From a virus (Duplodnaviria; Caudoviricetes): a stretch of 56,956 nucleotides of DNA. Within the stretch, counting starts at the first letter, position 1; each line of letters starts with the position of its first letter. Under the pieces are notes generated by a model that searched no databases, was not told where the DNA came from, and saw nothing but the letters and a program-made list of their open reading frames with translations. A program made the translations under genes and the position numbers. Below are positions 1 through 44,899 of this stretch, piece after piece. The stretch is taken from IMG/VR virus record IMGVR_UViG_3300036791_000660, positions 1 through 56,956 of that record; one strand, given 5' to 3'.

Positions 1-545
1 CTAGCCCACCCCCGGCACGACACGGCAGGCGCGGCTCGGACTGGCGCGACAAGGATGGCGAGGAACGCGGGGCCGGGTCAGGCAACGCATGGTCTGGCGT
101 GGCAGGCCTGTCGAGTCTTGGCATGCCGAGACTTCTCCGGGCGTGACTTCGCTGCGCGAGGCGGGGCCGGGCATGGCAGGCGTGGCATGGTTTTGCGGGG
201 TTGGGCACGACGAGCCGAGCCAAGGCATGGCTGGTGCGGCTAGGCGAGGAAGCCAAGGGATGGCCAGCAGCGGCGCGGTGAGGCCGGCCACGGCACGGCA
301 GGTGCGGCGGGGCAACCCAAGGCGCGACGGGGGAGGCTTGGCTTCCCACGGTCCGGCACGGTGAGGCAGGCAAGTCGAGGCAAGACACGATGTGACATGG
401 CACGATGCGGTTCGGCAGGCGCGGCTAGGAGTTCGCGACGAGGTAGGCAAGGCGGGGCTGGGTGCGGCAGGTCTGGCGCGTCGAGGCGAGGGTCGCGGGG
501 CGTGGCGGGGCAAGGCACGCAATCACATGGCACGGCAGGCACGAC
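1..545 (+). ncRNA. Array of degenerate GGY-NN pentamer-repeat units (putative multi-guide RNA precursor), truncated by the window start
   Basis: 5-nt periodicity (ggcgc ggctc ggact ggcgc gacaa...). Units are delimited by GGCAGG at 24, 101, 175, 297, 365, 414, 466 and 534 and by GGCTGG at 229. No credible ORF. The repeat is seen directly; RNA status is inferred. Confidence 0.8.
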
Positions 546-610: not shown

Positions 611-665
611 CCAAGCTCGCCACGCACAGGCGTTGGCGGTGAACAACCTTTCAGGAGACCTTGTG

Positions 666-18110: not shown

Positions 18111-18470
18111 ATGAGTAGGAACTACAAGACCAAGATCGGCGTGCAGTGGGGCAGCCTTGCGCTCGCCAGCACGAACCTCTCCGACAAGGCCGAGACCCAG
18201 TTGCGGGTACGCCGGGTGAAGCCTTCGGACGAACCCGAGCACGTGCAGGTCGAGGTCGAGATCGTCCGCGTCGGCGCGATGCGGCGCGCCAGCTATCACG
18301 GCTACATCCAGCTTGACGCCAAGCAGGCCAAGGCACTGGCGACGGCGGTCAGCAAGGTCCAGCCGGACTACGACCGGGACTCGCCGCTCGCCGGCCTGCA
18401 AGCCGATTCGGACAAGGCGTGGGCCGAATTCTACGGCATCGACCCCAAGGATATGGCGAGGTTCCTGTGA
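18111..18470 (+). CDS. Hypothetical protein
   Basis: Coupled ORF. Confidence 0.55.
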   Translation: MSRNYKTKIGVQWGSLALASTNLSDKAETQLRVRRVKPSDEPEHVQVEVEIVRVGAMRRASYHGYIQLDAKQAKALATAVSKVQPDYDRDSPLAGLQADSDKAWAEFYGIDPKDMARFL

Positions 18471-30588: not shown

Positions 30589-31725
30589 TCAGGTCTTGAT
30601 CAGCCAGTAGATGCCGGCCGACGGCTGGAGGTTGTTGTGCGGCAGGTCGCCGCCGGTCGGGCTGGTGGTGCCCGGATTGTTGACGCCGGGTGCGCCGCCA
30701 CCGGATGCGGCGTTGTTGACGTTGTTCAGGCCGACGTAGGCGTGGGTGTGCGATGGCATCTCAGGAACGGTCAGTTGGTGCTTGGCCTCGCCGACCTCTT
30801 GGCCGAGCGCGAAGGCGGCTCCCATCACGGTGCCGGCGGTATCGACGCCGGCCAGCACGCGGCCGACGAGGTTGGGCAGGTTGAAGGTGGTCGAGCCGTC
30901 GCCGACGCCCCACGTCGTGCCGATCACGGTGAACAGGTTGGCCTGCGCCGAGCGCGAGACTTGCGAACCGTCGCACAGCAGGAAGCCCGACGCCGGGAAG
31001 TGTGTGGGCGATCCGGCGAACGGCACGATCATGCCGGTCGAGACCGAGGTCACGGCGGCGGCGAACTGATGGGGCGTGATGAAGCTGTAGGCGTCGGTGC
31101 CGGCAGCGAGGGCCGCTGCGGTGGCCGGGGCGGCGTTGTCCTTGCGCCACTGCGTGCCGGTCCATGTGAGCCACGGCGCGTCGCCGGCGATCATCTCGCC
31201 GCCGATGAAGGCCGAGCCGTCGGAGCGCACGATGGGCGCGGCTCCCGTGCCGGGATCGAAGGTCGAGGGGCCGGTGTTGGTGTTGGCGATCAGCAGGCGC
31301 ACCGCCATGCCCTGCACGTTGGCCGTCAGCACCGGGTTGAGGACGCAGCGGTAGGCGTTGGCGATGCCGGTATCGACGCCGAAGGTCGAGGCGCCGGATT
31401 GCTCGTCGCCGTTCTGGAGCATCGTGGCGCACTGGCCGGCGGTCCACAGTTCGGCGATCAGGTCGTTGGCCGCCCACGTCTTGGGCGTGGTGCCTTCCTG
31501 ACCGCGCACGATGGTCAGGGTGTCGCCGACCACGGCCGTCACCCAGATGATCTCGTCCAGCAGGCCGGTGGCGGCGTCGATCAGGGTGCCGACCCAGTAT
31601 TGGCCGGCCGCCGGCACGGCGAACAGGATGCCGGTGCCAGCCGCCACGTTGAGCGAGGTCGCGGTCGCGCTGATCGAGCCGGCCAGCGTGCTCTGCGCAT
31701 TGTTTCTGAAGATCAGCTTCGCCAT
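30589..31725 (-). CDS. Tail fibre protein with a tail-collar domain
   Basis: GFLLCDGS.VSR..LF.VIGTTWG.GDGSTTFNLPNL.GR. Confidence 0.85.
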   Translation of the reverse strand: MAKLIFRNNAQSTLAGSISATATSLNVAAGTGILFAVPAAGQYWVGTLIDAATGLLDEIIWVTAVVGDTLTIVRGQEGTTPKTWAANDLIAELWTAGQCATMLQNGDEQSGASTFGVDTGIANAYRCVLNPVLTANVQGMAVRLLIANTNTGPSTFDPGTGAAPIVRSDGSAFIGGEMIAGDAPWLTWTGTQWRKDNAAPATAAALAAGTDAYSFITPHQFAAAVTSVSTGMIVPFAGSPTHFPASGFLLCDGSQVSRSAQANLFTVIGTTWGVGDGSTTFNLPNLVGRVLAGVDTAGTVMGAAFALGQEVGEAKHQLTVPEMPSHTHAYVGLNNVNNAASGGGAPGVNNPGTTSPTGGDLPHNNLQPSAGIYWLIKT

Positions 31726-31738
31726 GGTCCCCTCATCT

Positions 31739-32842
31739 TCAATTCGTGTTGACGATGAACTTGAACTGGAACGGCACTTCGAGAACGCCCGCGTCCATCG
31801 CCGCCTTGAAGATCGGCGCGAGTGGGTTGACCGGGAAGTTGGTCGAGGTGGTGTCGAACTCGTTGAGCGCGAAGGTGTTGAGCGGGCGCGTGTTGAGCAG
31901 CGCGCCGCCGACGAAGCGCCGCTTGGTGGTCTGGAGGTTGATGTTGACCTCGTTGTTCGCGCCGAAGGTGACGCTCACGTCGTAGGTCTGGTCAGGCTGG
32001 TAGGGGATCGGCGCGCCGCTCCTGCCGTTCTCGTAGCGCAGGAATCGCTCGACCCGTCGCTTCAGCCAGCGGATGTCGAAGACCTTGCCGTCTTCCTTGT
32101 AGAAGTGCCACGTGATGATGCGCTTGAAGATGTCATCGCTGGTCGCGTAGTAGCTGGCCGGCGGGATGTTGCGCAGCACGTTGAGCGCCAGCGTGTTGAG
32201 CGCGTAGGTGTTGAGCGGGCCGATGGTACGCGCCCGACCGGCGGGCAGCGCCGGGCGCTTGATGCCGTAGAGACCCGCCGCCACCCAGTCGAGCAGCGAG
32301 CCCGTGATCGTGTCGGCGGTGTAGACCGGCAGTTCGATGTAGGCGAACCACGAGATGTACTGCTGCATCAGGTTGTTGAACGACGTGACGAACGCCTGCA
32401 GGTCGTCGTCGTCGCTATACTGCTGGTAGAGGTACGACGGGATCGTCTTGCTGAGCGTCGTCGGAATCAGGTTGCCGTTGGCATCTGTCAGCGGGAAGTC
32501 GCCCGGCTTGGGCTTGGGCGGCGGCACCCGCACCTCGGTGAAGAACAGACCGGCGAACGAGTGGCCCGTGGTGGCGGCGTTGACGCTGACCTGCCCGGTG
32601 AAGCCCGCCGGCACCGGGAAGCTCTGGCCCGGCTGGAGCTTGAAGGTGGTGGCGCTCTCGATCAGGCCGGCCGGATGCACGAGGTCGATGAACAGCGTCT
32701 CGCTCACGGCGATGGTCTGGTCGGCCGCCTTCTCCGGGTTGACGATGAAGCCGCCCAGCACTGGGCCGAAGATCGCCGTGACCGGCGTGCCGCCGACACC
32801 GATGCGCGCCAGCGACAGCGGCCAGAGTTGGACCTGCGCCAT
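31739..32842 (-). CDS. Baseplate wedge protein with an extra N-terminal domain
   Basis: IPSYLYQQYSDDDDLQAFV..LLDWVA.GLYG..RP; follows the baseplate J gene. Confidence 0.7.
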   Translation of the reverse strand: MAQVQLWPLSLARIGVGGTPVTAIFGPVLGGFIVNPEKAADQTIAVSETLFIDLVHPAGLIESATTFKLQPGQSFPVPAGFTGQVSVNAATTGHSFAGLFFTEVRVPPPKPKPGDFPLTDANGNLIPTTLSKTIPSYLYQQYSDDDDLQAFVTSFNNLMQQYISWFAYIELPVYTADTITGSLLDWVAAGLYGIKRPALPAGRARTIGPLNTYALNTLALNVLRNIPPASYYATSDDIFKRIITWHFYKEDGKVFDIRWLKRRVERFLRYENGRSGAPIPYQPDQTYDVSVTFGANNEVNINLQTTKRRFVGGALLNTRPLNTFALNEFDTTSTNFPVNPLAPIFKAAMDAGVLEVPFQFKFIVNTN

Positions 32843-32845
32843 CGC

Positions 32846-34534
32846 CTAGCCCTGCACCACGGAGATTTGCGAAGTCGAGGTGAAGAAGTACGACTGCGGA
32901 TCGCCGAAGATCAGGAAGGTGCCGGCGCTGGGCAGCGTGCCGATGCCGTTGATCGACACCGCGAAGGTCAGCACCGAGATGAAGGTCGGGCCGAGCACGT
33001 TCTCGACGGCGGTCTGGAACACGTCCTCCATCACCAAGACGTTGAGCGGCTGGCCGACGATCACCGAGTTCACGTAGTCGGCGAGCGCCGGGGCGGCGAG
33101 TTGGGCGATGGCGGCGGCCGAGATGAAGTTCGGCGAGTCGGTGTTCCACGTCACCGTCATCGTCACCGTCTGCTGCGGCGGCACGACGAAGTTCACCACG
33201 TAGGTGTCGGGGTAGTCGGTGATCGTGACCGCGAGGTTGCGGTTGTTGGGCGTCACCACGCCGCCCGACACGTAGGCCGGCAGGCCGGTCGAATCGAAGT
33301 TGGCGATGCCCGCCTGAAGCTGGCCGAGCACCGTCTCGGCGCCGGGATTGGTGGCCAGCGGGAAAGTGATGGTGGTGCCCGACGCGGTGGTCGCCACGAA
33401 GGTGCCGTTCCAGCCGGCCGGCGTCGAGCCCGCCAGCGCGAAGGTCGAGCCCGGCGTCACGTTGTGCGCCACCAAGGTGGTCGCCGTGGCGACGCCAGCG
33501 GCCCACGCCAGCGACGCCAACTGGTTGGCCGGATAGGCCGTGCCAAGCTGGAAAGTCTTCTCCGAGGGCACCGCGAGGATGGCGTGGTTGCCGTTGAAGC
33601 CCACCGGGTTGACGCCGGCGAGCGTGATCGGCTGGCCGACCAGATAGCCGTGGTTGAGGTCGGTCGTGACCACCGCCGGGTTGGCGTTGGTGATGTTGGT
33701 GACGCTGACCGTCGAGCCGACCAAGTTCGAGATGTCGAACAGCGCAGTGTAGATCGCGTTGGCGACATCGTAGGGATCGCCGCCGCCCACGATGATCATC
33801 CAGCCACCGGCCGGGCCGGGCTGCTGCTGGATTCCAATCAGGCGCGATTGGACTCCGGGCACGTTCTCCAACAGCGTGCGCAGGTAGCGCGGCATGCCCT
33901 GTGAGGCCGCCAGCCCCGCCTGAAGCACCCGCGCCCGGTACATGCTCTCGGTCTCGGCGTCGGTGCCGGGGACGCCGGCCTCGGGATTAACGACGGTCAG
34001 CGTGAAGCCGGTCGGCGGCGGCGTGATCAGTTGCGTCACCACCCCCGGCGGCACGCTGAAAGAGCCGGCCTGCGTGGCGAGGGCGAACAGCGGATCGCTC
34101 TGGCCGGACTGGCCGATGATGCCGCCATCCCGCAGCGCATATTGGAAGTTGCCGTCGGAGACGATGAAGCCCTTGCCGATCACGAAGCCCGGCAGGCCGG
34201 AGAACACCACCAAGACGCTGGTGTTGCTGGCCGTACCGGGAACTACGCCATAGACCTCGCCAAGCTCGGCGAGGATGAAGGCGTTGCAGCCGAACGGCGT
34301 CAGCGAGTTGACGGTCTCGACGCGCGCCAGATCGGCCAGCACCAGCGACTGCACGTCGGTGCTGACGATGTCCTCGACCAGCGAGCCCGGCAAATTTCCG
34401 CTGAAACCCGGATTCGTCGCCGACACGCCGGACACCACCTCCTCGCGCAGCGTGAGAGGCGGCGTCGGCACCAGCCCGGCCGGGCCGATGACAGTCGGAA
34501 GTTCGCTCCCCGATGGCGGGATCGGATCGGCCAT
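32846..34534 (-). CDS. Baseplate J-like protein
   Basis: NLPGSLVEDI, AETESMYRARVLQA and GGGDPYDVA.AI motifs; synteny. Confidence 0.8.
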   Translation of the reverse strand: MADPIPPSGSELPTVIGPAGLVPTPPLTLREEVVSGVSATNPGFSGNLPGSLVEDIVSTDVQSLVLADLARVETVNSLTPFGCNAFILAELGEVYGVVPGTASNTSVLVVFSGLPGFVIGKGFIVSDGNFQYALRDGGIIGQSGQSDPLFALATQAGSFSVPPGVVTQLITPPPTGFTLTVVNPEAGVPGTDAETESMYRARVLQAGLAASQGMPRYLRTLLENVPGVQSRLIGIQQQPGPAGGWMIIVGGGDPYDVANAIYTALFDISNLVGSTVSVTNITNANPAVVTTDLNHGYLVGQPITLAGVNPVGFNGNHAILAVPSEKTFQLGTAYPANQLASLAWAAGVATATTLVAHNVTPGSTFALAGSTPAGWNGTFVATTASGTTITFPLATNPGAETVLGQLQAGIANFDSTGLPAYVSGGVVTPNNRNLAVTITDYPDTYVVNFVVPPQQTVTMTVTWNTDSPNFISAAAIAQLAAPALADYVNSVIVGQPLNVLVMEDVFQTAVENVLGPTFISVLTFAVSINGIGTLPSAGTFLIFGDPQSYFFTSTSQISVVQG

Positions 34535-34569
34535 GGACAATACCTGTCAATTCGTGTTTGGTGGGTGAA

Positions 34570-34651
34570 GCCGCGCCACGGCAAGTCCCGGCGGGGCTAG
34601 GCACGTCGAGGCAAGGTCTGGCCCGGCGGGGTTCGGCAAGGCACGGCAGGC
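34570..34651 (+). ncRNA. Stand-alone GGY-NN repeat cassette A (putative guide RNA)
   Basis: 15 in-phase pentamers ending GGCAGGC; intergenic and antisense to the late genes. Confidence 0.8.
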
Positions 34652-35044
34652 TTAGAGTGGGATCGGCACGCTCACGTCGATCTTCAGGCCAGCATGAGTG
34701 ACGATGTTGATGCGGTAGACCGGCGTCGTCGGATCAGGGACTTTGGCGATGATCAGCGAGGCGAACTGCGCAGCGAATCGCTTCTGGGTCATCACGACTT
34801 CAAAATCGGGGAAGACCTGCTGCAACACGCTGTAGGCCGCCGCGATGCCCCAGTCGGCATAAAACGGGCTCTCGCCTGCGTTCAGCAGCAGCACCTGCGC
34901 CAGCGCCGTCAGCATCACCATGTCGTTGAAGCCCTTGGCATCGGTCGTGACCACGACCCACTTCTTCGGCCCCTTGTTGAAGCTGATGTTGCTGCCGGGT
35001 GGACCGCCGAGCGGCGTGGCCGGGATGCGGCCGTAGGTCCTCAT
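34652..35044 (-). CDS. Baseplate wedge subunit (gp25-like)
   Basis: MRTYGR..L.LN.GESPFYADWGI; between spike and J. Confidence 0.65.
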   Translation of the reverse strand: MRTYGRIPATPLGGPPGSNISFNKGPKKWVVVTTDAKGFNDMVMLTALAQVLLLNAGESPFYADWGIAAAYSVLQQVFPDFEVVMTQKRFAAQFASLIIAKVPDPTTPVYRINIVTHAGLKIDVSVPIPL

Positions 35045-35706
35045 GGGACGACCGGGCCGCTGGTGCCCGAGCCGGGCTGCACATTCTGGTGGGTGTGCGC
35101 CGGGAAGACGTGGGTGATGTTGTCGATCAGGGTGCCAGCGGACGTGATGTCGAGGCCCATGCCTTGGAAGTTGAGGTGGAAGCCGCTGTCATCGACCCGC
35201 ATCAACACCTGCCCCTTCCATGTGACGGTGAGGCCGGTCTTGGTGTCGAGGTTGAAGATGATCTGCGAGTTCTCGTCGCGCAGGATCACGCCGTTGGGGC
35301 CGTAGATCAGCGTCTTCTCGGGATCGTCGGTCGGCGTGAAGTTGACGTTGCCACACGGGAAGAACACGCCGGTCGAGAGGTTGCCCGGCGGCGCGTAGGA
35401 CGCCTTGCCTTTGCCGAGCCCCGACATCTCGCCCATGTAGTAGTCGGCGCTGAGCACCAAGCCCTTGGTGCCCTTCTTCAGAGGCCAGCGACAGAACTCC
35501 GGGCCGTACACCGGCATCTTGATCTTGGGCAGCGTCCACTGCGACACGGTCTCGAACTTCACCGTGACGATGGTGCCGGTGGGATCGACCTCATCGACCG
35601 ACGCCGGGTGCGACTTCTGGAGCGCCTGATGGAAGCCGCTCAGCCGGTTGTCGGTGAGGCGGTTCAGACCTTGGATGGCTGGAAAGCGCTGTTGCGTCAG
35701 GTTCAT
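35041..35706 (-). CDS. Baseplate central spike
   Basis: OB-like N-terminus; C-terminal HxH (AHTHQNVQPGSGTSG) metal-binding tip. Confidence 0.8.
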   Translation of the reverse strand: MNLTQQRFPAIQGLNRLTDNRLSGFHQALQKSHPASVDEVDPTGTIVTVKFETVSQWTLPKIKMPVYGPEFCRWPLKKGTKGLVLSADYYMGEMSGLGKGKASYAPPGNLSTGVFFPCGNVNFTPTDDPEKTLIYGPNGVILRDENSQIIFNLDTKTGLTVTWKGQVLMRVDDSGFHLNFQGMGLDITSAGTLIDNITHVFPAHTHQNVQPGSGTSGPVVP

Positions 35707-35715
35707 GGTTCTACC

Positions 35716-36849
35716 TCAGAGGGTGGTGCCCTGCTGGACCGGCGGCGCGTCCTGCTTGGTCAGCGCGAACAGGTCGAAGGCCGTGGTCCACGCCTCGCCG
35801 GTGGCCTGCCGGAAGCGGCCGTTGTGGTGCATCTCCTGCACCCGCCAGACGCCTTGGAAGACCGACTTGTCGCGCGACGGCGTCTGGATCGCGGCGATGC
35901 CGGCGGCCTTGGGGTTCGGCGTGGTCGTGTAGGGCTGTTGCAATTCCGTCGGCAGCTTCACGAAGTCGAGGCACTGGATGTCGCCGCGCATCATGGTGAT
36001 GATGCTGATCGTGTAGGCGTTCTTCCATGCCGGCTGGCCGATCAGGTCGTTGAACACGATCTGCTTCGGCTTATCGACGCTGCTGCCGCCGGTCGGCGAC
36101 TCGTTCTGGGCGGCGTCGCTGACATAGATCGTCTTATCCTGCGTGAGGAACTGCACGCCGTAGTAGGGCGAGCCGTTGACGCCCTTCAGGCTGGAGAACG
36201 GACTGCCGGGCAGGGTGCCGTTGGTGTACTTCCTGATCCAGTCGCCCATCTCCGACAGGTTCTGGGCCTGATGGAGGACTTGCCCCGGTGTCTGGAGGTC
36301 GTCGCTGACCTTGCCTTTCACCGTGTACGCACCCGCGCCATAGGTGCCATCGACCATCTGCCGGATCGCGCCGACGAAGTCGAAACCGGGACTCCAGTTG
36401 AAGGTCAGCGGCTGGCCGACGAAGCTCTTGGGGTCGATGCTGTCGGCGATCAGCGGCACGATGGTGAAGTCGATGAAGGTCTGGTTGCCGACCCAGTTGC
36501 CCGAGCTTTGCCAGATCGTGCCCTTGACCAAGAGGTCGGGCAGGTACTGGAGCGACAGCGGAAAGTCGCCCTTGGTCATGCCGGCCCAGATCGAGATGGT
36601 CGCGCCTTGCAGGTCGGTGTCCTGCGCCACCTCCCGAATATCGACGCCATAGATGCGAATCCGTCCGCCTTGGCGCGGCAGGTCGTAGGTAAAGACCGGC
36701 AGGTCGATCACGATGTCGAGCGCCGACGAGTTCGGGCTGCCGTTGATCACCGAGGTGTAGGACGCATCCTTGACGCTGGCGGGAAGCGACGACGACTGCC
36801 AGACCTCGGTCTGGCCGTGCTTGGTTATCGCAATTTTGTAATATCTCAC
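35716..36849 (-). CDS. Baseplate hub protein
   Basis: GTG start overlapping the upstream stop; DLIGQPAW, MRGDI and H.GRFRQ..W.T motifs; synteny. Confidence 0.7.
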   Translation of the reverse strand: MRYYKIAITKHGQTEVWQSSSLPASVKDASYTSVINGSPNSSALDIVIDLPVFTYDLPRQGGRIRIYGVDIREVAQDTDLQGATISIWAGMTKGDFPLSLQYLPDLLVKGTIWQSSGNWVGNQTFIDFTIVPLIADSIDPKSFVGQPLTFNWSPGFDFVGAIRQMVDGTYGAGAYTVKGKVSDDLQTPGQVLHQAQNLSEMGDWIRKYTNGTLPGSPFSSLKGVNGSPYYGVQFLTQDKTIYVSDAAQNESPTGGSSVDKPKQIVFNDLIGQPAWKNAYTISIITMMRGDIQCLDFVKLPTELQQPYTTTPNPKAAGIAAIQTPSRDKSVFQGVWRVQEMHHNGRFRQATGEAWTTAFDLFALTKQDAPPVQQGTTL

Positions 36850-37340
36850 GGGCTGATCTCGAACTGGTTGTTGGGCAGCCGGTAGATCAGCGAAGACTCG
36901 AAGAACGGCTTGGCGAGATCGAGCATGGCCGAGATCGTCCCGAGCAGAGTCGCTTGGCCGGGATTGGCCGCCAGTTGGTACTGGAAGGTGGTCGGGCCGG
37001 TGATGAAGACCATCGCGTCGGCCACGTTGTAGGCATCGGGCAGGCAGCCGGCGATGGTGAGCCTGAAGGTGTCGCCGATGCGCAGGTCCTGCGGCACCTC
37101 GGTGGTGCCCGAGACGCGGCCGTTGGCCCACGCCAGCGTCTGAATCTGCAGCCCGGTGCGCGTGCCGGTGAGCGCGCGATGGAAGATCAGGTTGCCGCCG
37201 AGGTCTTGCAGCGTGAGATACCAGCGCTGGCCGAAGATGTTCCACGTCACGCTGGCCGAGTAGACCTGCCCGTCGAGCGTCGGGTTGAAGGCGAACGGCG
37301 GGGCGCCGGGGCCGGGCTGGAAGTCGATGATCGTGGCCAT
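36846..37340 (-). CDS. Baseplate protein with an inserted beta module
   Basis: F.F.PTLDG..Y...VTWNIFGQRWY. Confidence 0.65.
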   Translation of the reverse strand: MATIIDFQPGPGAPPFAFNPTLDGQVYSASVTWNIFGQRWYLTLQDLGGNLIFHRALTGTRTGLQIQTLAWANGRVSGTTEVPQDLRIGDTFRLTIAGCLPDAYNVADAMVFITGPTTFQYQLAANPGQATLLGTISAMLDLAKPFFESSLIYRLPNNQFEISP

Positions 37341-38092
37341 CAGTGCGCCGCCGAATAGGACGGAGTGCCGACGACGGGCAGCGGCGTGTTGGTCGCGACC
37401 GGCACGATGGCCGACGTGCCCGGCGGGGCGCCTCCGGCGACGGCGCTGGTCTGCAGGCCGCTGAGCGGCGGCTGGCCGATCACCTGCTTGCCGCCGTTGG
37501 CGGCGTCGAGGATGTCGTTCAACTGGCTGGTGATGCCCTGCGCGTCGTCCAGCGTGATCAGCGGCTTCTCGAAGTCGAGCGCCCACGAGGTCTGCACCTG
37601 CTTGGTGCCCGACGAGGAAGTATCACGCATCGAGCGCATCACGCAGTTGGCGTAGAGGAACGACGGCGTCAGGCAGTGATAGAGGCCGCCTTGGCGGTTG
37701 TGCTGCTCGAACGCCGTCTGCAACAGCATCATCACCGGCAGCTTGGTGAACATGCCGAGCGCACCGCGTGCCGGGCAGATCATCTGGTAGGTGATCGACA
37801 GCGGCTTGGTCAGCGCCGAGTTGGCGGCCGTCACTTGATTTGCGAACGGGTAGTGGGCGATGTCCTGATCAATCATCGTCGCGCCGGGCATCGGCGTGTA
37901 ATGGCAGAAGCAGTTGTCGAGGCTGATGCCCTCGGGCGCGGTCAGCAGGCCCGTCGCGAAGTTGACGGCTTCTGTCAGCGCGATGATCGGCATCATCTGG
38001 AACGGAAAGTTCTTGAAGATGCCGCCCTTGAAGATGATCGGCGAAAGCTCGAAGGCGAGCTTCCATGCGTTGTAGCCCACGGTGCCAGCCAT
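37340..38092 (-). CDS. Tail-tube initiator / Dit-like protein
   Basis: Immediately after the tape measure; YPFANQVTAAN and W.LDFEKPLI motifs. Confidence 0.65.
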   Translation of the reverse strand: MAGTVGYNAWKLAFELSPIIFKGGIFKNFPFQMMPIIALTEAVNFATGLLTAPEGISLDNCFCHYTPMPGATMIDQDIAHYPFANQVTAANSALTKPLSITYQMICPARGALGMFTKLPVMMLLQTAFEQHNRQGGLYHCLTPSFLYANCVMRSMRDTSSSGTKQVQTSWALDFEKPLITLDDAQGITSQLNDILDAANGGKQVIGQPPLSGLQTSAVAGGAPPGTSAIVPVATNTPLPVVGTPSYSAAH

Positions 38093-38100
38093 CGCTCACC

Positions 38101-39972
38101 TCACAGCGGGAACGGTGGCGGCGCGAACGCCGCCTGTTCGAGCGACGCCACGACCGAGCCGCCAGTGGCATCGTTGATCGTGACGCCGGCACCGCCGGCC
38201 GGCGCGCCGCCGGCGTACATGTTGCCGCCGAGCGCACGCTCGCGCTGGGCCACCATCTGGGCGACGCTGACGCCGGATACCTTATCGGCCCAGCGTGACG
38301 ACACGCTGTAGGGCTGGCCGCTAGCCCACATCGAGAACACGTCGCGGCTGGTGTGATACTTGTTGAGATATTCGTTCACCATGGCGGACGCGATCTGGTC
38401 CTGCATGCCGGGGTTCGACAGGTACTCTTGCGGCGACACGGTGCGGCCGAGCACGCGGCGGCTCATGGTGGCCAGCGTGCCCGGCATCAGTTGATAGGCG
38501 CCGAGCGCACGGCCTTGCCCCGGCACGTTCGCGCCGAGGATGCCGTAGTTGCCGCTGCTCTCGAACTGCTTGATGACCTGAAGAATCTTCTCCGGGCTGG
38601 CGACGATCTCGCCCTCGTGGACGCGGGCGTCCATGTCGTGCGGCACCACGCCGCCTTCTTGGTAGGCCCCGGTCGTGCCGCCCGACGAACTCGACGGCTG
38701 ACCCGACGCCAGCCAGTCCTGATAGGGCATCGGATTGATGCCGAGCTTCATCGACTCCCGCTGGTAGGCGTCATAGCGCCGCTTGTTGATGCGGTCGCGC
38801 TGCCAGCCCGGCATCTCCTCGGTGGTCGGCATGAAGCCGGGATTGCTGCGCAGCAGGTCGGGCGTGCTGGTGGGCGCGGCCGGCGGCGTGCCCGGCGCAC
38901 CCGTGAACCGCGCGATGAACTCGTAGATCGCCTTGCCGGCCTCAAACAGGCCCTTGGCGAACTTCTCGATGTAGTCCGGCAGCTTCTCCATGAACTCCTT
39001 GAACTCGGGCCGCTGCACCCACTCGCCGATCTTCTTCACGAACACCTCGGCGAAATGCTCCAGCGCCGGCAGGAGCGGCGTCAGGCCCTCGGCGATCAGC
39101 TTCCGCAACCGGCCGGTCACATCTTCCAGCGCGTCCTTGAACTCGCTCCACGCCTTCTCGGCGCCCTCGCGGATGCCGTACTTGCCGACGCCCGCCGTGA
39201 CGCTCTGTTCCTGCTTGGTGATGTCGGCGTCGCTCATGCCGACGGCGCGCTGGACATCCTGCGTGCTCAGCACGCCGCTCAGCCCCATCGCCTCCAGTTG
39301 CCCGGCCCACATGCCCTTGTTGACGCCGCCGAACTTGGACTTCAGCGCCCGGTTGAGGCCCCGGATGTTCTGGAACGCGCCGGCCTCGGGATTGAGCCCG
39401 AGCGCCCGCATGCCGATGTAGGCCGGGCTGCCGATGTCGGCCTGCGCGCCCGCGAAGGCGTCCATCAGCCCTTCGACGTTCATGCCGGTGCCGCCCAAGC
39501 CGATGCGCAGTGACTCGATCTGGCCGGGCGCCATGCCGAGCCCGGCGCGCGTCGCCCGCGTGCCCCGGATCGCATCGGCGAGCTTGTCGAGGCCAAATAG
39601 CAGGCCGCCGCCACCAACCGCACCCGAGATGCCGGCCCACCGCATGAAGCCGAGGCTGGCGTCCTTGATGTGGATCGCGAAGCTCTTGGCGTGCTCGCGC
39701 AGCTTGCCCCACGACACCACCGAATCGCGGGCGTGCACCGCCACGTCCTTGTGGTGGGCGACGATCTGGCGGCCGAGGCTGGCCTGCGCCGTCATCGCCG
39801 CCGTCATCCTCGACATATTTTCCATCGCCGCGCGCTGCTCGGCGGTGACGTTCTTCCAGTCCTTCGGCGTCTGCGCCAGCATCTTGGAGTATTTGGCGAA
39901 GGCGTCTTGGAAGCGCTTGAACTGTTGCTCGTTGACTTCAATGTCAACGACTGATTTTGCGTTTACTGCCAC
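38101..39972 (-). CDS. Tape measure protein with a C-terminal lysozyme-like domain
   Basis: GTG start 5 nt after GGAGG; helical body; FESSGNY..ALGAYQLMP.T..QD motif. Confidence 0.8.
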   Translation of the reverse strand: MAVNAKSVVDIEVNEQQFKRFQDAFAKYSKMLAQTPKDWKNVTAEQRAAMENMSRMTAAMTAQASLGRQIVAHHKDVAVHARDSVVSWGKLREHAKSFAIHIKDASLGFMRWAGISGAVGGGGLLFGLDKLADAIRGTRATRAGLGMAPGQIESLRIGLGGTGMNVEGLMDAFAGAQADIGSPAYIGMRALGLNPEAGAFQNIRGLNRALKSKFGGVNKGMWAGQLEAMGLSGVLSTQDVQRAVGMSDADITKQEQSVTAGVGKYGIREGAEKAWSEFKDALEDVTGRLRKLIAEGLTPLLPALEHFAEVFVKKIGEWVQRPEFKEFMEKLPDYIEKFAKGLFEAGKAIYEFIARFTGAPGTPPAAPTSTPDLLRSNPGFMPTTEEMPGWQRDRINKRRYDAYQRESMKLGINPMPYQDWLASGQPSSSSGGTTGAYQEGGVVPHDMDARVHEGEIVASPEKILQVIKQFESSGNYGILGANVPGQGRALGAYQLMPGTLATMSRRVLGRTVSPQEYLSNPGMQDQIASAMVNEYLNKYHTSRDVFSMWASGQPYSVSSRWADKVSGVSVAQMVAQRERALGGNMYAGGAPAGGAGVTINDATGGSVVASLEQAAFAPPPFPL

Positions 39973-39992
39973 GACACCCTCCATTGAGGGCA

Positions 39993-40094
39993 GAGGATGG
40001 CAGCCGTGAAGCCACCATCCTCCCTTGCCGTGCCTCGACATGCCTCAACACGACACGCCCTGCATTGCAGCGCCTTGCCACGTCGCGCCATGTC
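39993..40094 (-). ncRNA. Stand-alone GGY-NN repeat cassette B (putative guide RNA) with 3' hairpin
   Basis: 14 in-phase pentamers (40094 down to 40025), then a GAGGATGG...CCATCCTC hairpin; TTGACA at 40129-40124. Confidence 0.8.
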
Positions 40095-40255
40095 TGATGC
40101 CAGAGACCGCATTGGACAGGAGGTGTCAATCATGGCCTACCCCCGACGTAGCAGTGCCACGAGATGGCGGTGCCGGTAGTCGTGCGCGGTGCGCCACTCG
40201 AACTCGGGCGTGCGGTCGGCGAACACGTCCACGAAGCCCTCGGTGACGATCCAGT

Positions 40256-40831
40256 CTAAACAGGAATGGAAGACGGATTCGCCGTCTCGCCAATACTCAC
40301 GGCCGGCGTCGATGTCGGCAAAGAACTGCGGTAGTCCGTACAGGTGGAGGAGGTGATCCGCGAACCGGACGCCGCGAACAGCGGGTAGATCATGTCCCGG
40401 CGCTCCGAGGGCGTGTGCGCCCACGAAGCTCCCGTAAAAAAAACCAGTTGGTTCCTGATGTTCTGCGCGTCGTCGTCGTTGATCAGCTTGTCGCTGATCG
40501 ACTTCTCGAAGGGCAGCATCTGCCAGCCGCCGCTGCCATCCGGGGCAAGGACGTTGGTCAGTCGCCAGATTTCGGCAAGGAGGTGTTGCTCGACGTTCGG
40601 GCGGTTCATCTTGGCCGCCGCGTCTTGCAGCATCAGGAGGCCCACGCGGGGCATCATGAAGGGGGCGATGCCTTCCTCGTACATGGCCGACATCATGCGG
40701 CTCAGCACGAGGAAGTTCGCCTCGTAAATCTCGCGCCTGACCGGCGTCGAGTGGACGAAGATGTCTTGGCCTTTTTCGTCCGTCACCGTGAAGACGATGT
40801 TCAGCTTGCGGTCGATCTGCGGGTCTGCCAT
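40256..40831 (-). CDS. Tail assembly chaperone
   Basis: Between tube and tape measure; a -1-frame ORF (to 40137) overlaps its 3' part. Confidence 0.7.
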   Translation of the reverse strand: MADPQIDRKLNIVFTVTDEKGQDIFVHSTPVRREIYEANFLVLSRMMSAMYEEGIAPFMMPRVGLLMLQDAAAKMNRPNVEQHLLAEIWRLTNVLAPDGSGGWQMLPFEKSISDKLINDDDAQNIRNQLVFFTGASWAHTPSERRDMIYPLFAASGSRITSSTCTDYRSSLPTSTPAVSIGETANPSSIPV

Positions 40832-40887
40832 GGGGTCTGCCTTTCTGTCTATGCCCTCATTTGAGGGCGTACCTAACTAGAGTCTAA

Positions 40888-41340
40888 TTAGGTCTCCCAC
40901 AGGAGCGAGTTGATCAGGACGTAGCCGCGCATCGAGACGCGGAAGCCGGCATCGGTGCCGGAGAACGCCTGCTCGGCGACGTTCTCGATGGCGCAGTTGA
41001 TCAGTTGGTAGATGCCGATGCCGGGCGAGTTGAGCGGCACGTCGGGGTGAACCTGCCCGTCGCCGATCATCGCATCGCTCTCCATCTTGGCCTTGTAGAG
41101 TTGGGCAAGCTGCTGGGTCTTCAGCAGCGCCATCGTCATGGTGAACATCTGGTAGGGCTCGGGGCTGGTGACCGCGCCGGTCATCGACGGCAGGAACACC
41201 GTGGTGCCGCCGTCGAGCGCGAGCCGGATGCCTTCGGCCCCCAGATAGGACGCCGTGACGTTAAGGTCGGGGAAGTCGGGCCAGATGACCGACGCCCGCA
41301 GCCGGTTCAGCGAGCCTTGCGCAACAAGCGGATTCGCCAT
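40888..41340 (-). CDS. Tail tube protein
   Basis: MANPLVAQGSLNRLRAS..LP.MTG.VTSPEPY; follows the sheath. Confidence 0.75.
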   Translation of the reverse strand: MANPLVAQGSLNRLRASVIWPDFPDLNVTASYLGAEGIRLALDGGTTVFLPSMTGAVTSPEPYQMFTMTMALLKTQQLAQLYKAKMESDAMIGDGQVHPDVPLNSPGIGIYQLINCAIENVAEQAFSGTDAGFRVSMRGYVLINSLLWET

Positions 41341-41358
41341 GTCTGTCTCCCTTCAGCC

Positions 41359-43008
41359 CTACGCCGCCGCGACGAAGTCGGTGACGTTGATGTGAAAGAT
41401 GATGTGCTCGAAGCCCCGCGCCGGCGTGTAGACCATGGTCAGCCCGCCGTACTTGCCGATCTTGTAGTCGCCGGGGTTCTTCGACAGGTACGAGGTGAAG
41501 GGGTCGGCATCGACCGCCACCTGCCCGGCGTAGAGGCCCTTGTTCACGTTGATGATGAACTGGTCCTCGGGCAGCGTGAGCGGGATCACCCGGCCGATGG
41601 CGAGGCCGACCGAGATCGCGGTGGCCCCGGTCGAGGCGGCGACCGCCAGCAGGCGGTTGATGCCGTCCTGATTGTAGTAGAGCGGGTTCACCGTGGTGTT
41701 GCTGCCATTGATGATGGCGTTGCTGATGTTCAGGTCGATGTTGATCTGCATCCAATCGACGGAATACCAGTAGTTGAACGGCCGGGCGTCCAGCGTGTGG
41801 CCGAACTTCAGGATGTTGTCGCTGATGCCGCCCTCGGCGCCGAAGCCGACGATGTTGATGCTGGCCGCCTCCAGTGCGTCCATCACCGCTTGGTTGCCCG
41901 GTGACGGGAACGTCGTGACGCCGAACAGGAACGAGTAGCTGTAGGGCGGCACGCGGCTCGTGGAGGACGGGCTGTAGTTCAGCGTCACCCACCACGCGGC
42001 GGCCATCGAGAACTCGGTCGGCGGCACGCCGGCTGACGGATAGACCTGCTGTTGCAGGAAGCCCAGCGTGGTCTCTGCCCCCGGATTGGCGTCGAGCGCG
42101 TAGACCAGCGCCGTGCCGGTGGTGCCGGGTTGGGCGACGAAGGTGCCGTTGTAGGCCGCCGGCACCATGCCGATCACGGTGAAGGTCTGGCCGGGCTTGA
42201 CGGTGTGGTTGGTGGTGGTCTGCAGCGTGACCAGTCCGGCCGACCACGCGGCGCTGACGATGGCGTTGCGCGGCCACGCGCCGTAGCTCGGGGCCTCGAT
42301 CAGGGCGACCACGTCCTTCATCAGCGGCGTGTACGCGGTGTAGCTGCCGAGCGTGGTGGTGACGAAGAAGTAGGTCTTGCCGGTCGGGCTCTCGAACTGG
42401 GCGATCAGCGACAGGAACTCCGGCACCCCGTCCCATTCGCGCGGCACGAGGTAGCTGTAGAACATCTGCGCGTTGTCGTTCATGAACTGCTGGAGGTTGG
42501 CGACGCCCTGCGCCGGCGTGCCAGCCCCCAGTTCGAGCACGTAGCAGCCCTGCTGGAAGCCCTGCGCGAAGAACGTGTTCACCATCGCCTGAAGCTCGCC
42601 GGCGGCCGGCGACGTGAAGGTGCCGACTGTCGTCACCGTGCCCGGATTGGTGGCGAGGTAGTAGGTGAAGGACGAGGCACCGCTGGCCTGTGCCATGAAC
42701 TGGCCGTTGTACTGGGCCGGCACGACGCCCGCGATGGTCACCGGGAACAGGTCGCCGATCTCTGCGCCATGCGGCAGCGTGGTGTTGACCGTCACCTGCC
42801 CGCCATAGGCGGCGCTCCAAGCGAGCGAGGCCATGGCGGCCGGTGGCGCGATGATGTTGGTGAGGTCGGACGGCTGCTGAAGCAGCGTCGTGGAGCCGAC
42901 CGGCAGGACGGTGCCGCCTTGGCTCAGCATCGCTCCCATCTTCTGGAGCGTGTTGGGCGTCGGGGCCTGCGTCTGCGTGACATCGACAAGGACAATGGGA
43001 TTCGCCAT
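41359..43008 (-). CDS. Tail sheath protein
   Basis: FNYWYSVDWMQIN..SNAIINGSN..NPLYYNQDGINRL. Confidence 0.8.
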   Translation of the reverse strand: MANPIVLVDVTQTQAPTPNTLQKMGAMLSQGGTVLPVGSTTLLQQPSDLTNIIAPPAAMASLAWSAAYGGQVTVNTTLPHGAEIGDLFPVTIAGVVPAQYNGQFMAQASGASSFTYYLATNPGTVTTVGTFTSPAAGELQAMVNTFFAQGFQQGCYVLELGAGTPAQGVANLQQFMNDNAQMFYSYLVPREWDGVPEFLSLIAQFESPTGKTYFFVTTTLGSYTAYTPLMKDVVALIEAPSYGAWPRNAIVSAAWSAGLVTLQTTTNHTVKPGQTFTVIGMVPAAYNGTFVAQPGTTGTALVYALDANPGAETTLGFLQQQVYPSAGVPPTEFSMAAAWWVTLNYSPSSTSRVPPYSYSFLFGVTTFPSPGNQAVMDALEAASINIVGFGAEGGISDNILKFGHTLDARPFNYWYSVDWMQINIDLNISNAIINGSNTTVNPLYYNQDGINRLLAVAASTGATAISVGLAIGRVIPLTLPEDQFIINVNKGLYAGQVAVDADPFTSYLSKNPGDYKIGKYGGLTMVYTPARGFEHIIFHINVTDFVAAA

Positions 43009-43027
43009 GGAGGAGGTCTCCTGTCGA

Positions 43028-43309
43028 TCACGAGAAGACGACGTTGTAACTGCCCGTCAGCGGTGCCTTGACCGAGATGCCGACCGACGCCGAGGAGTTG
43101 AGCGGCAGCAACTGCCCGGCCACCATGGTGGCGGGGAAGCCCGCGATGGCGAGACCCGCGCCGCCGGTCGTGACATCGTTGATCAGGTCGATGGTGCCCG
43201 GCGTCAGGCAGAGCACGCTGACGACGGTGCCGGGCTTGGCCTTCAGCACCTGCACCGTGTTGAGGCCGCGCTTGATGCCGGCGGTCAGGAACATCTGGTT
43301 CTGCGGCAT
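43028..43309 (-). CDS. Small virion-associated protein
   Basis: AGGAG RBS; beta-rich. Confidence 0.6.
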   Translation of the reverse strand: MPQNQMFLTAGIKRGLNTVQVLKAKPGTVVSVLCLTPGTIDLINDVTTGGAGLAIAGFPATMVAGQLLPLNSSASVGISVKAPLTGSYNVVFS

Positions 43310-43327
43310 GGCTTCGTTCTCCTGCTT

Positions 43328-44389: not shown

Positions 44390-44390
44390 G

Positions 44391-44720
44391 TCAGACCTGC
44401 ACCTTCCAGCCGTAGGCCGCCAAGTAGGCCGCCGTGTAGGCGATGCGATGGCCCTGCATGGGCGAGATCGGTGCCCACTGCTTGCTCGCCTTTTCCCAGC
44501 GCATCAACTTGCGCTCGTCGCCGCCCGGCGTGATCAGCCACATCATCGCGCCGTCCTCGGTGCCCTCGGGCGGCAGGCACTTGCTCTCCGGGTTGATCGT
44601 CACGGTCGGCATGGGCAGCGCGCCCGCGCGAATGTGGCCAACTCCCGGCACAAACATATGCTCGGTCTTGGCGGCCATCGCCTGCGCGTGCGGGCTCAGG
44701 ATTCGCGAGAGGTCAGGCAT
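44391..44720 (-). CDS. Hypothetical protein
   Basis: GAGG RBS; ORF between structural genes. Confidence 0.55.
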   Translation of the reverse strand: MPDLSRILSPHAQAMAAKTEHMFVPGVGHIRAGALPMPTVTINPESKCLPPEGTEDGAMMWLITPGGDERKLMRWEKASKQWAPISPMQGHRIAYTAAYLAAYGWKVQV

Positions 44721-44768
44721 CACTGCACCTCATTGACAAATGTTGGCGGATGCGGTCAGTCGTCGGCA

Positions 44769-44899
44769 GCCACGGCCAGTCGCGGGATGGCAAGGCCTGT
44801 CACGGCAGCGCTAGGCAGCGCCCGTCGTGGCTCGCCACGGCAAGGCGAGTCGGGGAAGGCACGGCACGGGGAGGGACGGCTCAGCGATGGGCCGTCCCT
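44769..44899 (+). ncRNA. Stand-alone GGY-NN repeat cassette C (putative guide RNA) with 3' hairpin
   Basis: 17 in-phase pentamers (44769-44853), a short tail, and an AGGGACGGC...GCCGTCCCT hairpin; TTGACA at 44733. Confidence 0.8.

What the first reader, a model, noticed from the sequence alone, without database searches (positions are those of the whole stretch)
34382..34651. Cassette A encodes a variant of the adjacent baseplate-J motif
NN = GC AC AA CC GG TA AC GA AA CT CC GG TC (then AA AC tail) = A-T-N-P-G-Y-T-[DE]-N-L-P-G-S. The phage's own J gene at 34420-34382 reads GCG ACG AAT CCG GGT TTC AGC GGA AAT TTG CCG GGC TCG (ATNPGFSGNLPGS). 9/13 dinucleotides match and the four mismatches are single-base changes clustered centrally (Y/F, T/S, D/G, Leu CTn/TTG). 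Inference: the guide targets the homologous gene of related competing phages while self escapes.
Basis: partly seen in the sequence, partly recalled or inferred. Interest (0 to 1): 0.9.

Follow-up and report, generated by a model that had tools for sequence, protein, structure and literature searches.

The report
Phage guide RNA beside its target
A short repeat cassette wedged between two tail genes of a soil phage looks like a recently described VIPR guide RNA, aimed at the version of a baseplate gene that related phages carry, while the phage's own copy next door is altered just enough not to match.

Summary
The 13 variable dinucleotides at 34570-34634 (+) match the first two bases of J codons 39-51 (34420-34382, -) at 9/13 dinucleotides and 22/26 bases. 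It is the only such hit in the window (next best 6/13; 0 of 1000 shuffled guides reach 22).

The cassette has the form of a vrRNA of the VIPR systems (2026 preprints): GGY/NN pentamers that read DNA as NNx, skipping the wobble base.

All 52 J-homologue rows match the guide better than they match this phage's J (up to 12/13). The family consensus is ATNPGYTANLPGS; only this phage has F-S-G and Leu TTG at the centre.

Beyond the published main texts I read, three solitary cassettes (A, B, D) each nearly match a gene segment 7-150 bp away; a fourth (C) does so only suggestively. Cassette D matches 10/11 units, and its one miss is a serine codon-family switch (AGY vs TCA). The peptide spelled by cassette B fits 15/17 residues, and four of its six misses are Ser/Leu family switches. 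Relatives have no spacer where A and B sit.

No vipr gene is in the record, which starts inside a vrRNA array. Expression and binding are untested.

Verdict: a new variant of a known kind.

The parts
34560..34649 (+). Cassette A repeat tract: 18 pentamers of the form G-K/C-Y-N-N. The 13-unit guide core is 34570-34634. The last units, GGCAC GGCAG, are a motif that recurs at array ends.
   Evidence: 9 of the 13 core units are exact GGY; the others are GCC x2 and GTC x2.
34536..34550 (.). Partly palindromic box (TTGACA-N5-TGKC on the - strand; GGACAATACCTGTCAA on the + strand) just 5' of cassette A. It abuts the J start codon at 34534-34532. Inferred to be a promoter or operator.
   Evidence: 6 boxes in the window against 0.55 expected (0 of 100 shuffles reach 6). 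5 of the 6 lie beside arrays.
34649..34690 (+). Weak 3' hairpin after cassette A, with an inner stem starting GGGAUCGG. It overlaps the 3' end of the upstream (- strand) gene.
   Evidence: predicted stem, but the whole-cassette z-score is only -1.19 (25 of 200 shuffles fold as well).
34382..34420 (-). Near-target of guide A inside the phage's own J gene (codons 39-51, ATNPGFSGNLPGS).
   Evidence: Relatives carry ATNPGYTANLPGS here.
32846..34534 (-). Baseplate J-like gene (562 aa).
   Evidence: PF04865, E 7.3e-10; homologues at 41-59% identity.
34652..35044 (-). Upstream baseplate gene (130 aa, no family hit). In relatives its stop usually overlaps the J start.
   Evidence: the stop overlaps the J start by 4 nt in 28 of 50 rows, and the gap is 10 nt or less in 45 of 50. 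Here the gap is 117 nt and is filled by cassette A.
40025..40089 (-). Cassette D: 11 guide units (40089-40035; NN = GC GT AA GC AA AG GT GT GA AT GA), then GGCAC GGCAA. Its box lies at 40129-40115 and a 14-bp hairpin follows to about 39993.
   Evidence: (z -4.84).
39937..39969 (-). Near-target of guide D: codons 2-12 (AVNAKSVVDIE) of the adjacent gene 38101-39972, which is tape-measure-like by position.
   Evidence: 10/11 dinucleotides, 20/22 bases, 11/11 residues compatible. The only miss is AG (guide) against TCA, both serine. 0 of 1000 shuffles reach it.
44769..44853 (+). Cassette B: 17 guide units. Box at 44733-44747, GGCAC GGCAC at 44858-44867, and a 14-bp hairpin plus CUU at about 44870-44901.
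   Evidence: (z -3.73).
44906..44956 (-). Near-target of guide B: the last 17 codons but one (PSFVDTGLYLSSFRAWV) of ORF 44900-45406 (phrog_6560), 7 nt beyond the cassette's hairpin.
   Evidence: 11/17 dinucleotides, 24/34 bases (next best in the window 20; 0 of 1000 shuffles). 15/17 residues are compatible. Four of the six misses are Ser or Leu codon-family switches. The skipped base falls on the wobble position of the - strand codons.
49555..49619 (+). Cassette C: 13 units. Box at 49518-49532, then a 10-bp hairpin 49623-49646 followed by TCTT.
   Evidence: (z -2.06).
49452..49490 (-). Possible near-target of guide C: the start codon and first 12 codons (MAEKDKDKPKVAA) of gene 48546-49490. Suggestive only.
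   Evidence: 16/26 ungapped, which is not above shuffles (909 of 1000 reach the window maximum of 17). By eye 10 of 11 units fit if two indels are allowed, but the sequence is of low complexity.
1..541 (+). Long vrRNA-type array cut by the contig end. A 4-nt unit GGCA followed by GG recurs at about 27, 101, 176, 297, 367, 414, 470 and 534, which suggests at least 8 consecutive guides of the staggered-array kind.
   Evidence: No match in the window to any of its 45 sliding 9-unit guides (best 7/9 residues).

Best explanation
Cassette A is a solitary vrRNA gene of a VIPR system. Its parts are a promoter-like box, about 16 GGY/NN pentamers and a 3' hairpin. It sits inserted into the normally overlapping junction of two baseplate genes.

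In VIPR, one Vipr protomer holds each GGY and presents the NN pair. The NN pairs base-pair with DNA read as NNx, so the wobble base is skipped. The bound filament represses transcription. All of this is shown for the SUSP1 and P. fulva systems in the preprints, not here.

Guide A spells A-T-N-P-G-Y-T-[D/E]-N-L-P-G-S, which is the family-consensus motif of baseplate J. It would therefore bind J of related phages or satellites (inferred). The phage's own J, 150 bp away, differs at four central units: Y to F, T to S, A/D to G, and Leu CTN to TTG. The own copy should then be bound poorly or not at all (inferred).

Cassettes B and D are built the same way against the neighbouring genes, and cassette C probably is too. 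The self copies are recoded largely by switches between the two codon families of Ser and Leu. Those switches are the only synonymous changes a wobble-blind guide can see.

Each cassette and its recoded neighbour thus form a tightly linked guide-plus-immune-allele pair. The Vipr protein must come from a gene lost at the contig's left end or from another element in the cell (inferred).
For: (1) Anatomy. Five period-5 GGYNN tracts. Four are solitary, each beside a TTGACA-N5-TGKC box (6 in the window against 0.55 expected). B, C and D each have a strong 3' hairpin (z -3.7, -2.1, -4.8).

(2) Rule. With one skipped base, guides A, B and D each have a single outlying hit in the window (22/26, 24/34 and 20/22 bases). 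0 of 1000 shuffles reach any of them. Spacings of 0 or 2 give nothing comparable. The skipped base falls on the wobble position in all three.

(3) Each outlying hit lies 7-150 bp from its own cassette.

(4) Relatives match guide A better than they match self in 52 of 52 rows, reaching 12/13. Ten-unit windows of A reach 19/20 in many relatives, against a shuffled-guide maximum of 17.

(5) Recoding signature. Of the 11 mismatched units in A, B and D, 6 are synonymous Ser/Leu family switches. In an unrelated complete phage (L145), 2 of 3 mismatches are Leu and Arg family switches.

(6) Insertion. Relatives have overlapping or abutting genes where A and B sit.

(7) Class. In 120 IMG/VR loci fetched by a GGCNN x7 pattern, one protein family (phrog_4652) occurs in 78. 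Its profile matches the solved 'SUSP1 Vipr protein' (PDB 36pp_D) at E 5.4e-21.

(8) Published mechanism, and phages that carry solo vrRNAs without vipr: passages and sections read.
Against: No vipr (phrog_4652) and no phrog_15946 (a candidate vap) is found in six frames of the record at E up to 10. An hmmsearch and an hhalign of 48 ORFs also find nothing; the best hhalign probability is 3.9%. CheckV rates the record 100% complete.

By the identity score the preprints use to call targets (at least 0.8), D (0.91) and the 13-unit core of A (0.85) would count as self-targets. The first preprint reports no self hits at that level in its systems.

Cassette A has the weakest tail (z -1.19), and its box is best on the opposite strand.

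Guide unit GA disagrees with the consensus GC, and no exact target was found in IMG/VR.

For B, only 2 of 4 relatives match the guide better than they match self: 12 v 9 twice (near-identical sequences), 10 v 12, and 10 v 10. For D, the relatives are too distant to judge (23-27% identity). C is not significant ungapped.

Structural proteins act in trans, so it is unclear how silencing a rival's J gene would harm the rival in a mixed infection.

There are no expression data. No Rfam family matches.
Confidence: 0.68

Rival explanations
1. Self-regulation. The cassettes guide Vipr to the phage's own late genes. Partial matches tune the strength of binding, for example to time or damp tail-gene expression, or to keep the late operon silent in a lysogen.
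For: Every clear near-target is in the phage's own late operon, within 150 bp of its guide. D scores 0.91 and the core of A scores 0.85, above the 0.8 used in the preprints to call targets. D and C point at the first codons of a gene, a good place for a transcriptional roadblock.
Against: A regulator should keep a good match. Here the misses are concentrated in the middle of the guide. Six of 11 are synonymous codon-family switches, which cost the protein nothing and serve only to break pairing. Relatives without cassettes match guide A better than self in 52 of 52 rows. The self-type F-S-G occurs in no relative.
Confidence: 0.15
2. Relics. The cassettes are decaying remnants of vrRNA genes in a phage that has lost vipr. 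The near-matches record past targeting of an ancestor's or relative's genes and have no present function.
For: There is no vipr in a record rated complete. Many units depart from GGY: GCC, GTC, CGC, TGC. Cassette A lacks a convincing tail.
Against: B, C and D keep a box, a tract and strong hairpins. The record starts inside an array, and in other loci vipr lies directly upstream of such arrays. Phages without vipr that keep solo vrRNAs are reported as common, and satellite solo vrRNAs are reported to act in trans (abstract and section 8 of 10.64898/2026.10.15.759431). The paper also states that vrRNAs are 'frequently' internally degenerate.
Confidence: 0.12
3. Coincidence, or a compositional artefact of a G+C-rich genome.
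For: One of 1000 shuffles reaches 9/13 dinucleotides for A. Guide C alone is not above shuffles.
Against: 0 of 1000 shuffles reach the base-level score for A, B or D. In three independent cassettes the single top hit lies within 150 bp of the cassette. Wrong-spacing controls are empty.
Confidence: 0.01

Closest known systems
VIPR systems (Vipr RAMP protein plus vrRNA; SUSP1 and P. fulva type II and six other types), bioRxiv 10.64898/2026.04.26.720920 and 10.64898/2026.04.26.720927
   Same: Tandem GGY/NN pentamers with a 3' structured tail. NN read against DNA with one skipped base that falls on the codon wobble position. Targets lie on either strand, in genes of related mobile elements, including tape-measure and baseplate homologues. 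The array-associated protein family in IMG/VR loci is homologous to the solved SUSP1 Vipr.
   Different: No vipr or vap in the record. The cassettes are scattered singly through the structural operon instead of flanking vipr. Each lies next to a near-copy of its own target. Self scores of 0.85 and 0.91 exceed the level at which the paper found no self hits. The tails are simple hairpins starting GGGA; a pseudoknot was not tested.
VIPR-null phages and satellites with solo (orphan) vrRNAs, bioRxiv 10.64898/2026.10.15.759431
   Same: vrRNAs without vipr in the same genome. Guides aimed at relatives, with self-match lower than non-self match to avoid autoimmunity.
   Different: Those solo vrRNAs sit in place of a deleted vipr-vap1 segment in Enterobacteria phages. 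They target vipr, other vrRNAs, satellites or host REP elements (section 8). Here they are inserted between structural genes of a soil phage and target the flanking structural genes. The own alleles are recoded by codon-family switches, which that paper's main text does not describe (term searches). Its supplementary tables could not be seen.
Free-standing homing endonucleases and marker exclusion in T-even phages (recalled, not tested here)
   Same: A selfish unit inserted between conserved genes. It attacks the neighbouring sequence of relatives that lack it, while the carrier's own copy is polymorphic and immune, so weapon and immunity are inherited together.
   Different: The recognition module is an RNA guide, not a protein. 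No nuclease is associated here. Published type II VIPR represses rather than cuts, so gene conversion into the rival is only a conjecture.
Class 1 CRISPR crRNA-Cas7 filaments and phage-borne mini-arrays (recalled)
   Same: A RAMP filament on a guide RNA, with periodic unpaired positions. Phage-encoded guides are used against competing elements.
   Different: Pentamer repeats carry only 2 informative bases per unit. There are no spacers or repeats of CRISPR type, no adaptation genes and no PAM.
TRAP-binding sites in trp leader RNA (GAG/UAG triplets with 2-3 nt spacers; recalled)
   Same: The same 3+2 pentamer periodicity, wrapped by a protein oligomer. This was my first working idea.
   Different: The variable bases carry no information in TRAP sites. 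Here they spell neighbouring codons. The idea was dropped.

Membership tests
VIPR vrRNA | Tract of about 9-16 tandem pentamers with a conserved GGY and variable NN | tested here: met
   Cassette A has 18 units in register. In its 13-unit core, 9 units are GGY and 4 are GCC or GTC. B has 17 units, C 13 and D 11 or more. The paper accepts internal degeneracy.
VIPR vrRNA | NN positions match a DNA target with exactly one skipped base per unit, and the skip falls on the codon wobble position | tested here: met
   Unique outlying hits occur only at skip 1 (A 22/26, B 24/34, D 20/22; 0 of 1000 shuffles). The wobble alignment holds in all three.
VIPR vrRNA | Conserved structured 3' tail after the repeat tract | tested here: inconclusive
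   B, C and D have 10-14 bp hairpins that start GGGA. A has only a weak one (z -1.19). There are too few copies for a covariation test. The pseudoknot of the SUSP1 clade was not examined.
VIPR system (complete) | A vipr gene (small RAMP, about 20 kDa) in the same element | tested here: not met
   No match to phrog_4652, or to the 78-member profile, in six frames at E up to 10. That profile does match PDB 36pp_D 'SUSP1 Vipr' at 5.4e-21. Caveat: the contig begins inside an array, and in other loci vipr lies just upstream of arrays.
VIPR-null solo-vrRNA phage | vrRNA present and vipr absent; guide matches non-self better than self | tested here: met
   For A, 52 of 52 rows match the guide better than self. 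For B, only 2 of 4 do. D and C could not be tested for lack of close relatives.
VIPR vrRNA | Transcribed as a discrete small RNA that co-purifies with Vipr | not testable with these tools
   No RNA run is listed for this sequence. The runs that were laid are DNA contigs only.
Homing / marker-exclusion element | A site-specific nuclease that cuts the cassette-less allele | tested here: not met
   No nuclease gene adjoins any cassette. The ORFs beside them are structural genes or genes of unknown family. The likeness is in layout only.

The most novel reading that the evidence does not exclude
The solitary cassettes are selfish guide-plus-immunity modules. Each is an RNA-guided counterpart of a homing or marker-exclusion element. 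It is inserted beside a conserved structural gene, aims Vipr at the unrecoded allele carried by relatives, and rides with a recoded immune allele, so that in mixed infections the pair spreads by recombination.

The Ser/Leu/Arg codon-family switches would then be the first natural record of how a genome escapes a wobble-blind guide without changing its protein. That is contrary to the published expectation that such guides cannot be escaped by synonymous change.
Probability: 0.3. Interest if true: 0.8.

Novelty: new variant of a known kind. Interest (0 to 1): 0.62.

Why it matters
VIPR was described only in 2026, and its natural biology is known mainly from one E. coli phage-satellite pair.

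This phage gives a natural experiment in self versus non-self discrimination. The guide and the immune copy of its target lie side by side, so the changes that confer immunity can be read directly. They are central, conservative amino-acid changes, plus synonymous switches between the two codon families of six-fold degenerate amino acids. This bears on the published claim that skipping the wobble base blocks escape by synonymous mutation.

It also gives concrete target and escape pairs for measuring mismatch tolerance. And it suggests that vrRNA genes can move as small insertions coupled to an immune allele, which would be a route to their spread and diversification.

Tried and rejected
My first idea, an RNA wrapped by a TRAP-like ring protein, was dropped once the VIPR preprint was found.

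Searches that found nothing relevant:
- Rfam at gathering thresholds: no family.
- The simple promoter/terminator scan lists nothing at the cassettes. The B and C hairpins fail its T-run rule.
- TRF reports only part of cassette C as period 5.
- Pfam, PHROGs and NCBIfam on about 30 ORFs gave no RAMP-like hit.
- Exact degenerate-pattern scans of IMG/VR for guides D and A: 0 hits each.
- The 45 sliding guides of the terminal array find nothing in the window (best 7/9).
- In 72 related loci, only guides from A and B score 17/20 or more.

Relatives. J-protein searches found no relative closer than about 59% identity: genome contigs gave 2 loci and metagenome contigs 35. Tape-measure homologues in five related records are only 23-27% identical, so guide D could not be tested against relatives.

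Sequencing runs. No RNA holder is listed. X1 may be the source sample. X2 holds only short near-identical fragments, none of the listed pieces over a cassette. At 80% likeness, most of what was laid belongs to other organisms.

Is adjacency general? Among 208 arrays in 120 other IMG/VR loci, 9 have a flank match of 7/8 residues or more, against 0 of 208 mismatched controls. My re-implementation did not reproduce several of those scores. On inspection, only L145, L066 and perhaps L141 look convincing. In L145 the array lies about 500 bp downstream of that phage's own vipr, so it is not a remote solitary cassette.

The control genomes that 'ring' for phrog_4652 did so only at E up to 10, and none rang. 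I draw nothing from them.

Their target tables (data S3; Supplementary Tables 13-18) may already list cases like this one.
Full report
**What is there**

The window is the whole held record: a 56,956-bp linear phage contig with 66% G+C. CheckV rates it 100% complete.

Early genes run on the + strand from about 2 to 24 kb. The late (structural) operon runs on the - strand from about 56 down to 24 kb.

The finding lies at the junction of two baseplate genes. Gene 32846-34534 (-) is a Baseplate_J protein (PF04865, E 7.3e-10). Gene 34652-35044 (-) precedes it. The 117 bp between them hold a tract of pentamers that read G-G/K-Y-N-N on the + strand.

**The observation**

The match to J codons 39-51 is 9/13 dinucleotides and 22/26 bases. 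The four misses are each one base. This is the only place on either strand above 6/13.

Shuffling the unit order 1000 times never gave 22/26 anywhere in the window. It gave 9/13 once. Models with 0 or 2 skipped bases reach only 18 and 17 of 26.

**What kind of thing it is**

The window holds five such tracts:
- A long one at 1-541, cut by the contig end.
- Four solitary ones: A (34560-34649, +), B (44769-44853, +), C (49555-49619, +) and D (40089-40025, -).

Rfam knows none of them.

A full-text search for pentanucleotide repeats in phage intergenic regions led to the VIPR preprint, 10.64898/2026.04.26.720920. I read its Results, Discussion and Methods sections 18, 20, 26 and 27. It describes:
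- vrRNAs of 9-16 YNNGG repeats plus a 3' tail.
- vrRNAs bound by a small RAMP protein, Vipr.
- Double-stranded DNA recognised through the NN pairs with one skipped base per unit.
- The skipped base usually falling on the codon wobble position.
- Targets lying in competing phages and satellites.

A companion cryo-EM preprint shows one protomer per repeat and stepwise unwinding (10.64898/2026.04.26.720927, passages only).

I checked independently that GGCNN arrays go with Vipr:
- One ORF family occurs in 78 of the 120.
- That family is phrog_4652 (5 of 5 members tested).
- A 12-member profile of it matches PDB 36pp chain D, 'SUSP1 Vipr protein', at E 5.4e-21.

**Anatomy of the cassettes**

Each solitary tract sits beside a TTGACA-N5-TGKC box. 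There are 6 boxes in the window against 0.55 expected. Five lie beside arrays. The sixth, at 8400, precedes an ordinary gene, so the box is probably this phage's promoter type.

B, C and D end in 10-14 bp hairpins that start GGGA and are followed by (U)CUU. A, B and D carry GGCAC GGCA(N) GG just before the hairpin.

Cassette A is the least canonical. Its box reads better on the opposite strand, and its hairpin is weak and lies inside the end of the upstream gene.

**The surroundings change the picture**

I ran all guides against the whole window under the one-skip rule. The single top hit for D, B and A is always the neighbouring gene.

Guide D (GC GT AA GC AA AG GT GT GA AT GA) faces codons 2-12 of the next gene (GCA GTA AAC GCA AAA TCA GTC GTT GAC ATT GAA). 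Ten of 11 units are identical. The one miss is AG against TCA, which are the two codon families of serine. At residue level the fit is 11/11.

Guide B, read on the opposite strand, spells P-S-F-V-D-T-G-L-Y-L-V-[S/R]-F-[I/M]-A-W-V. The last residues of ORF 44900-45406 are PSFVDTGLYLSSFRAWV, only 7 nt beyond the cassette's hairpin. The fit is 11/17 units and 15/17 residues. Of the six misses, two are Ser and two are Leu family switches.

In A, one of the four misses is Leu CTN against TTG. The others are Y/F, T/S and [D/E]/G.

Guide C begins AT GC GA, the same as the ATG GCT GAA that starts the adjacent gene. It needs two indels to continue, and it is not significant ungapped. I treat it as suggestive only.

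J homologues (41-59% identity) were collected from IMG/VR (25 loci), from metagenome contigs (35 loci) and from one Acetobacteraceae genome bin (2 loci). Several metagenome rows are the same contigs as IMG/VR rows.

In every row where the site is covered, it matches the guide better than it matches this phage's J. That is 24 of the 25 IMG/VR loci and 28 of the other 37. The consensus is ATNPGYTANLPGS. Seven loci give 12/13 against the guide and 9/13 against self. No row has F, S or G at positions 6-8.

Ten-unit windows of guide A reach 19/20 in many relatives. Windows of B reach 18/20 in L176 and 17/20 in L190 and L191. Shuffled guides reach at most 17.

None of these relatives has an array in the fetched stretch. 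In the relatives, the upstream gene's stop overlaps the J start by 4 nt in 28 of 50 rows, and the gap is 10 nt or less in 45 of 50. The gene before B's position ends in TGATG, overlapping the next start, in the four relatives found. Cassettes A and B are therefore insertions.

For B, the guide-versus-self comparison is mixed: 12 v 9 twice, 10 v 12, and 10 v 10.

**Where is Vipr?**

It is not in the record:
- hmmsearch with the 78-member profile finds nothing real.
- hhalign against 48 ORFs gives a best probability of 3.9%.
- A six-frame search with phrog_4652 at E up to 10 finds nothing.
- The frequent neighbour family phrog_15946 is also absent.

The contig starts inside the long array. In other loci the order is vipr, then often phrog_15946, then the arrays. 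In one case these are followed by the same PDDEXK exonuclease family that lies at 2492-3415 here. So vipr may lie just off the left end.

Alternatively, this is a VIPR-null phage with solo vrRNAs. An October 2026 preprint reports that class for 346 Enterobacteria phages, and for satellites whose solo vrRNAs act through a helper's Vipr. It notes that self-match scores are lower than non-self (10.64898/2026.10.15.759431; abstract, sections 8, 17 and 25 and passages read).

**What is new**

Neither preprint's main text mentions guides lying next to their own near-targets, or escape by codon-family switching. I checked this with term searches for homing, adjacent, neighbor, self-target, synonymous and escape. 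The supplements could not be read.

The first preprint reports no self hits at 80% or more. Here D scores 0.91 and the core of A scores 0.85. Both preprints argue that wobble skipping blocks synonymous escape. The six-fold degenerate codons are the exception, and this phage uses them.

A first look at generality:
- L145, a complete 56.5-kb phage with terminal repeats, has a guide matching codons 4-15 of the gene just downstream at 9/12. Two of its three misses are Leu and Arg family switches. That array lies about 500 bp from the phage's own vipr.
- L066 shares this phage's 1614-aa protein at 50% identity. It has a solitary tract with a 7/9 flank match plus one Ser switch.
- Overall, 9 of 208 arrays have a flank match of 7/8 or more, against 0 of 208 controls. 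Most of the nine do not hold up on inspection.

**Mechanism and its weak points**

Shown here: the sequence relations, the insertions and the recoding signature. Taken from the preprints: how Vipr and vrRNA bind and repress.

Inferred: that these RNAs are made, that they are loaded, that central mismatches stall filament completion, and that silencing a rival's tail gene pays off even though tail proteins act in trans.

The layout, a weapon inserted beside an immune allele, resembles free-standing homing endonucleases of T-even phages (recalled). No nuclease is present.

**Verdict**

The element is a vrRNA of the recently described VIPR kind, in a new arrangement. Confidence in the main reading is 0.68. 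Self-regulation is at 0.15 and relics at 0.12.

Noticed in passing
window 584-598, 8400-8414, 34536-34550, 40115-40129, 44733-44747, 49518-49532: A partly palindromic box, TTGACA-N5-TGKC, occurs 6 times against 0.55 expected. Five copies lie beside vrRNA tracts and one lies before an ordinary early/middle gene at 8466. It is probably this phage's promoter or operator type.
   Followed up: partly
window 1-541: The long array is punctuated by a 4-nt unit GGCA followed by GG, every 55-120 nt. The same punctuation is seen in 25 of the 120 IMG/VR array loci, and 20 of those 25 carry the Vipr family. It may mark the 1-nt-overlapping 'staggered' vrRNA boundaries mentioned in the preprint.
   Followed up: partly
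window 664-1457 (+): An ORF with a signal-peptide-like start, followed by about 230 residues of almost pure Gly/Ser repeats, directly after the terminal array. Function unknown. TRF lists the region as many overlapping repeats of period 6-78.
   Followed up: no
window 50808-55652 (-) and 49649-50623 (-): A 1614-aa ORF with no Pfam hit sits in the head module. Its only relative seen is in L066, at about 50% identity over 254 aa. The next gene fuses a NUDIX domain (E 2.3e-15) to a weak DUF2213-like part.
   Followed up: no
L066:10438-10586 (- strand): A fragmentary relative of this phage's head module carries a solitary GGCNN tract. One of its guides fits codons TCG ACC GGC ACG TGG AAC TAC AGC GGC, 218 nt away, at 7/9 units plus one Ser family switch.
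   Followed up: partly
L145:11448-11726 (contig 53787-54065 of a 56.5-kb genome with terminal repeats): The array downstream of that phage's vipr ends in a guide that fits codons 4-15 of the next gene (MSQSSVFPIFLRAEYR...) at 9/12. Its misses are V/I, Leu TTG against CT, and Arg CGA against AG.
   Followed up: yes
window 18419-18988 (+), 2492-3415 (+), 3943-5067 (+): The early region encodes a NADAR-domain protein (E 9e-24), a PDDEXK/DUF3799 exonuclease and an AAA_24 ATPase. The last two families recur near VIPR loci in several IMG/VR contigs.
   Followed up: no
coded run X2 laid on window 31000-50500: A second soil metagenome, from another study, holds short low-depth contigs (223-375 nt) with 0-16 differences from this phage. 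A close relative therefore exists in the wild, but none of the listed pieces covers a cassette.
   Followed up: partly
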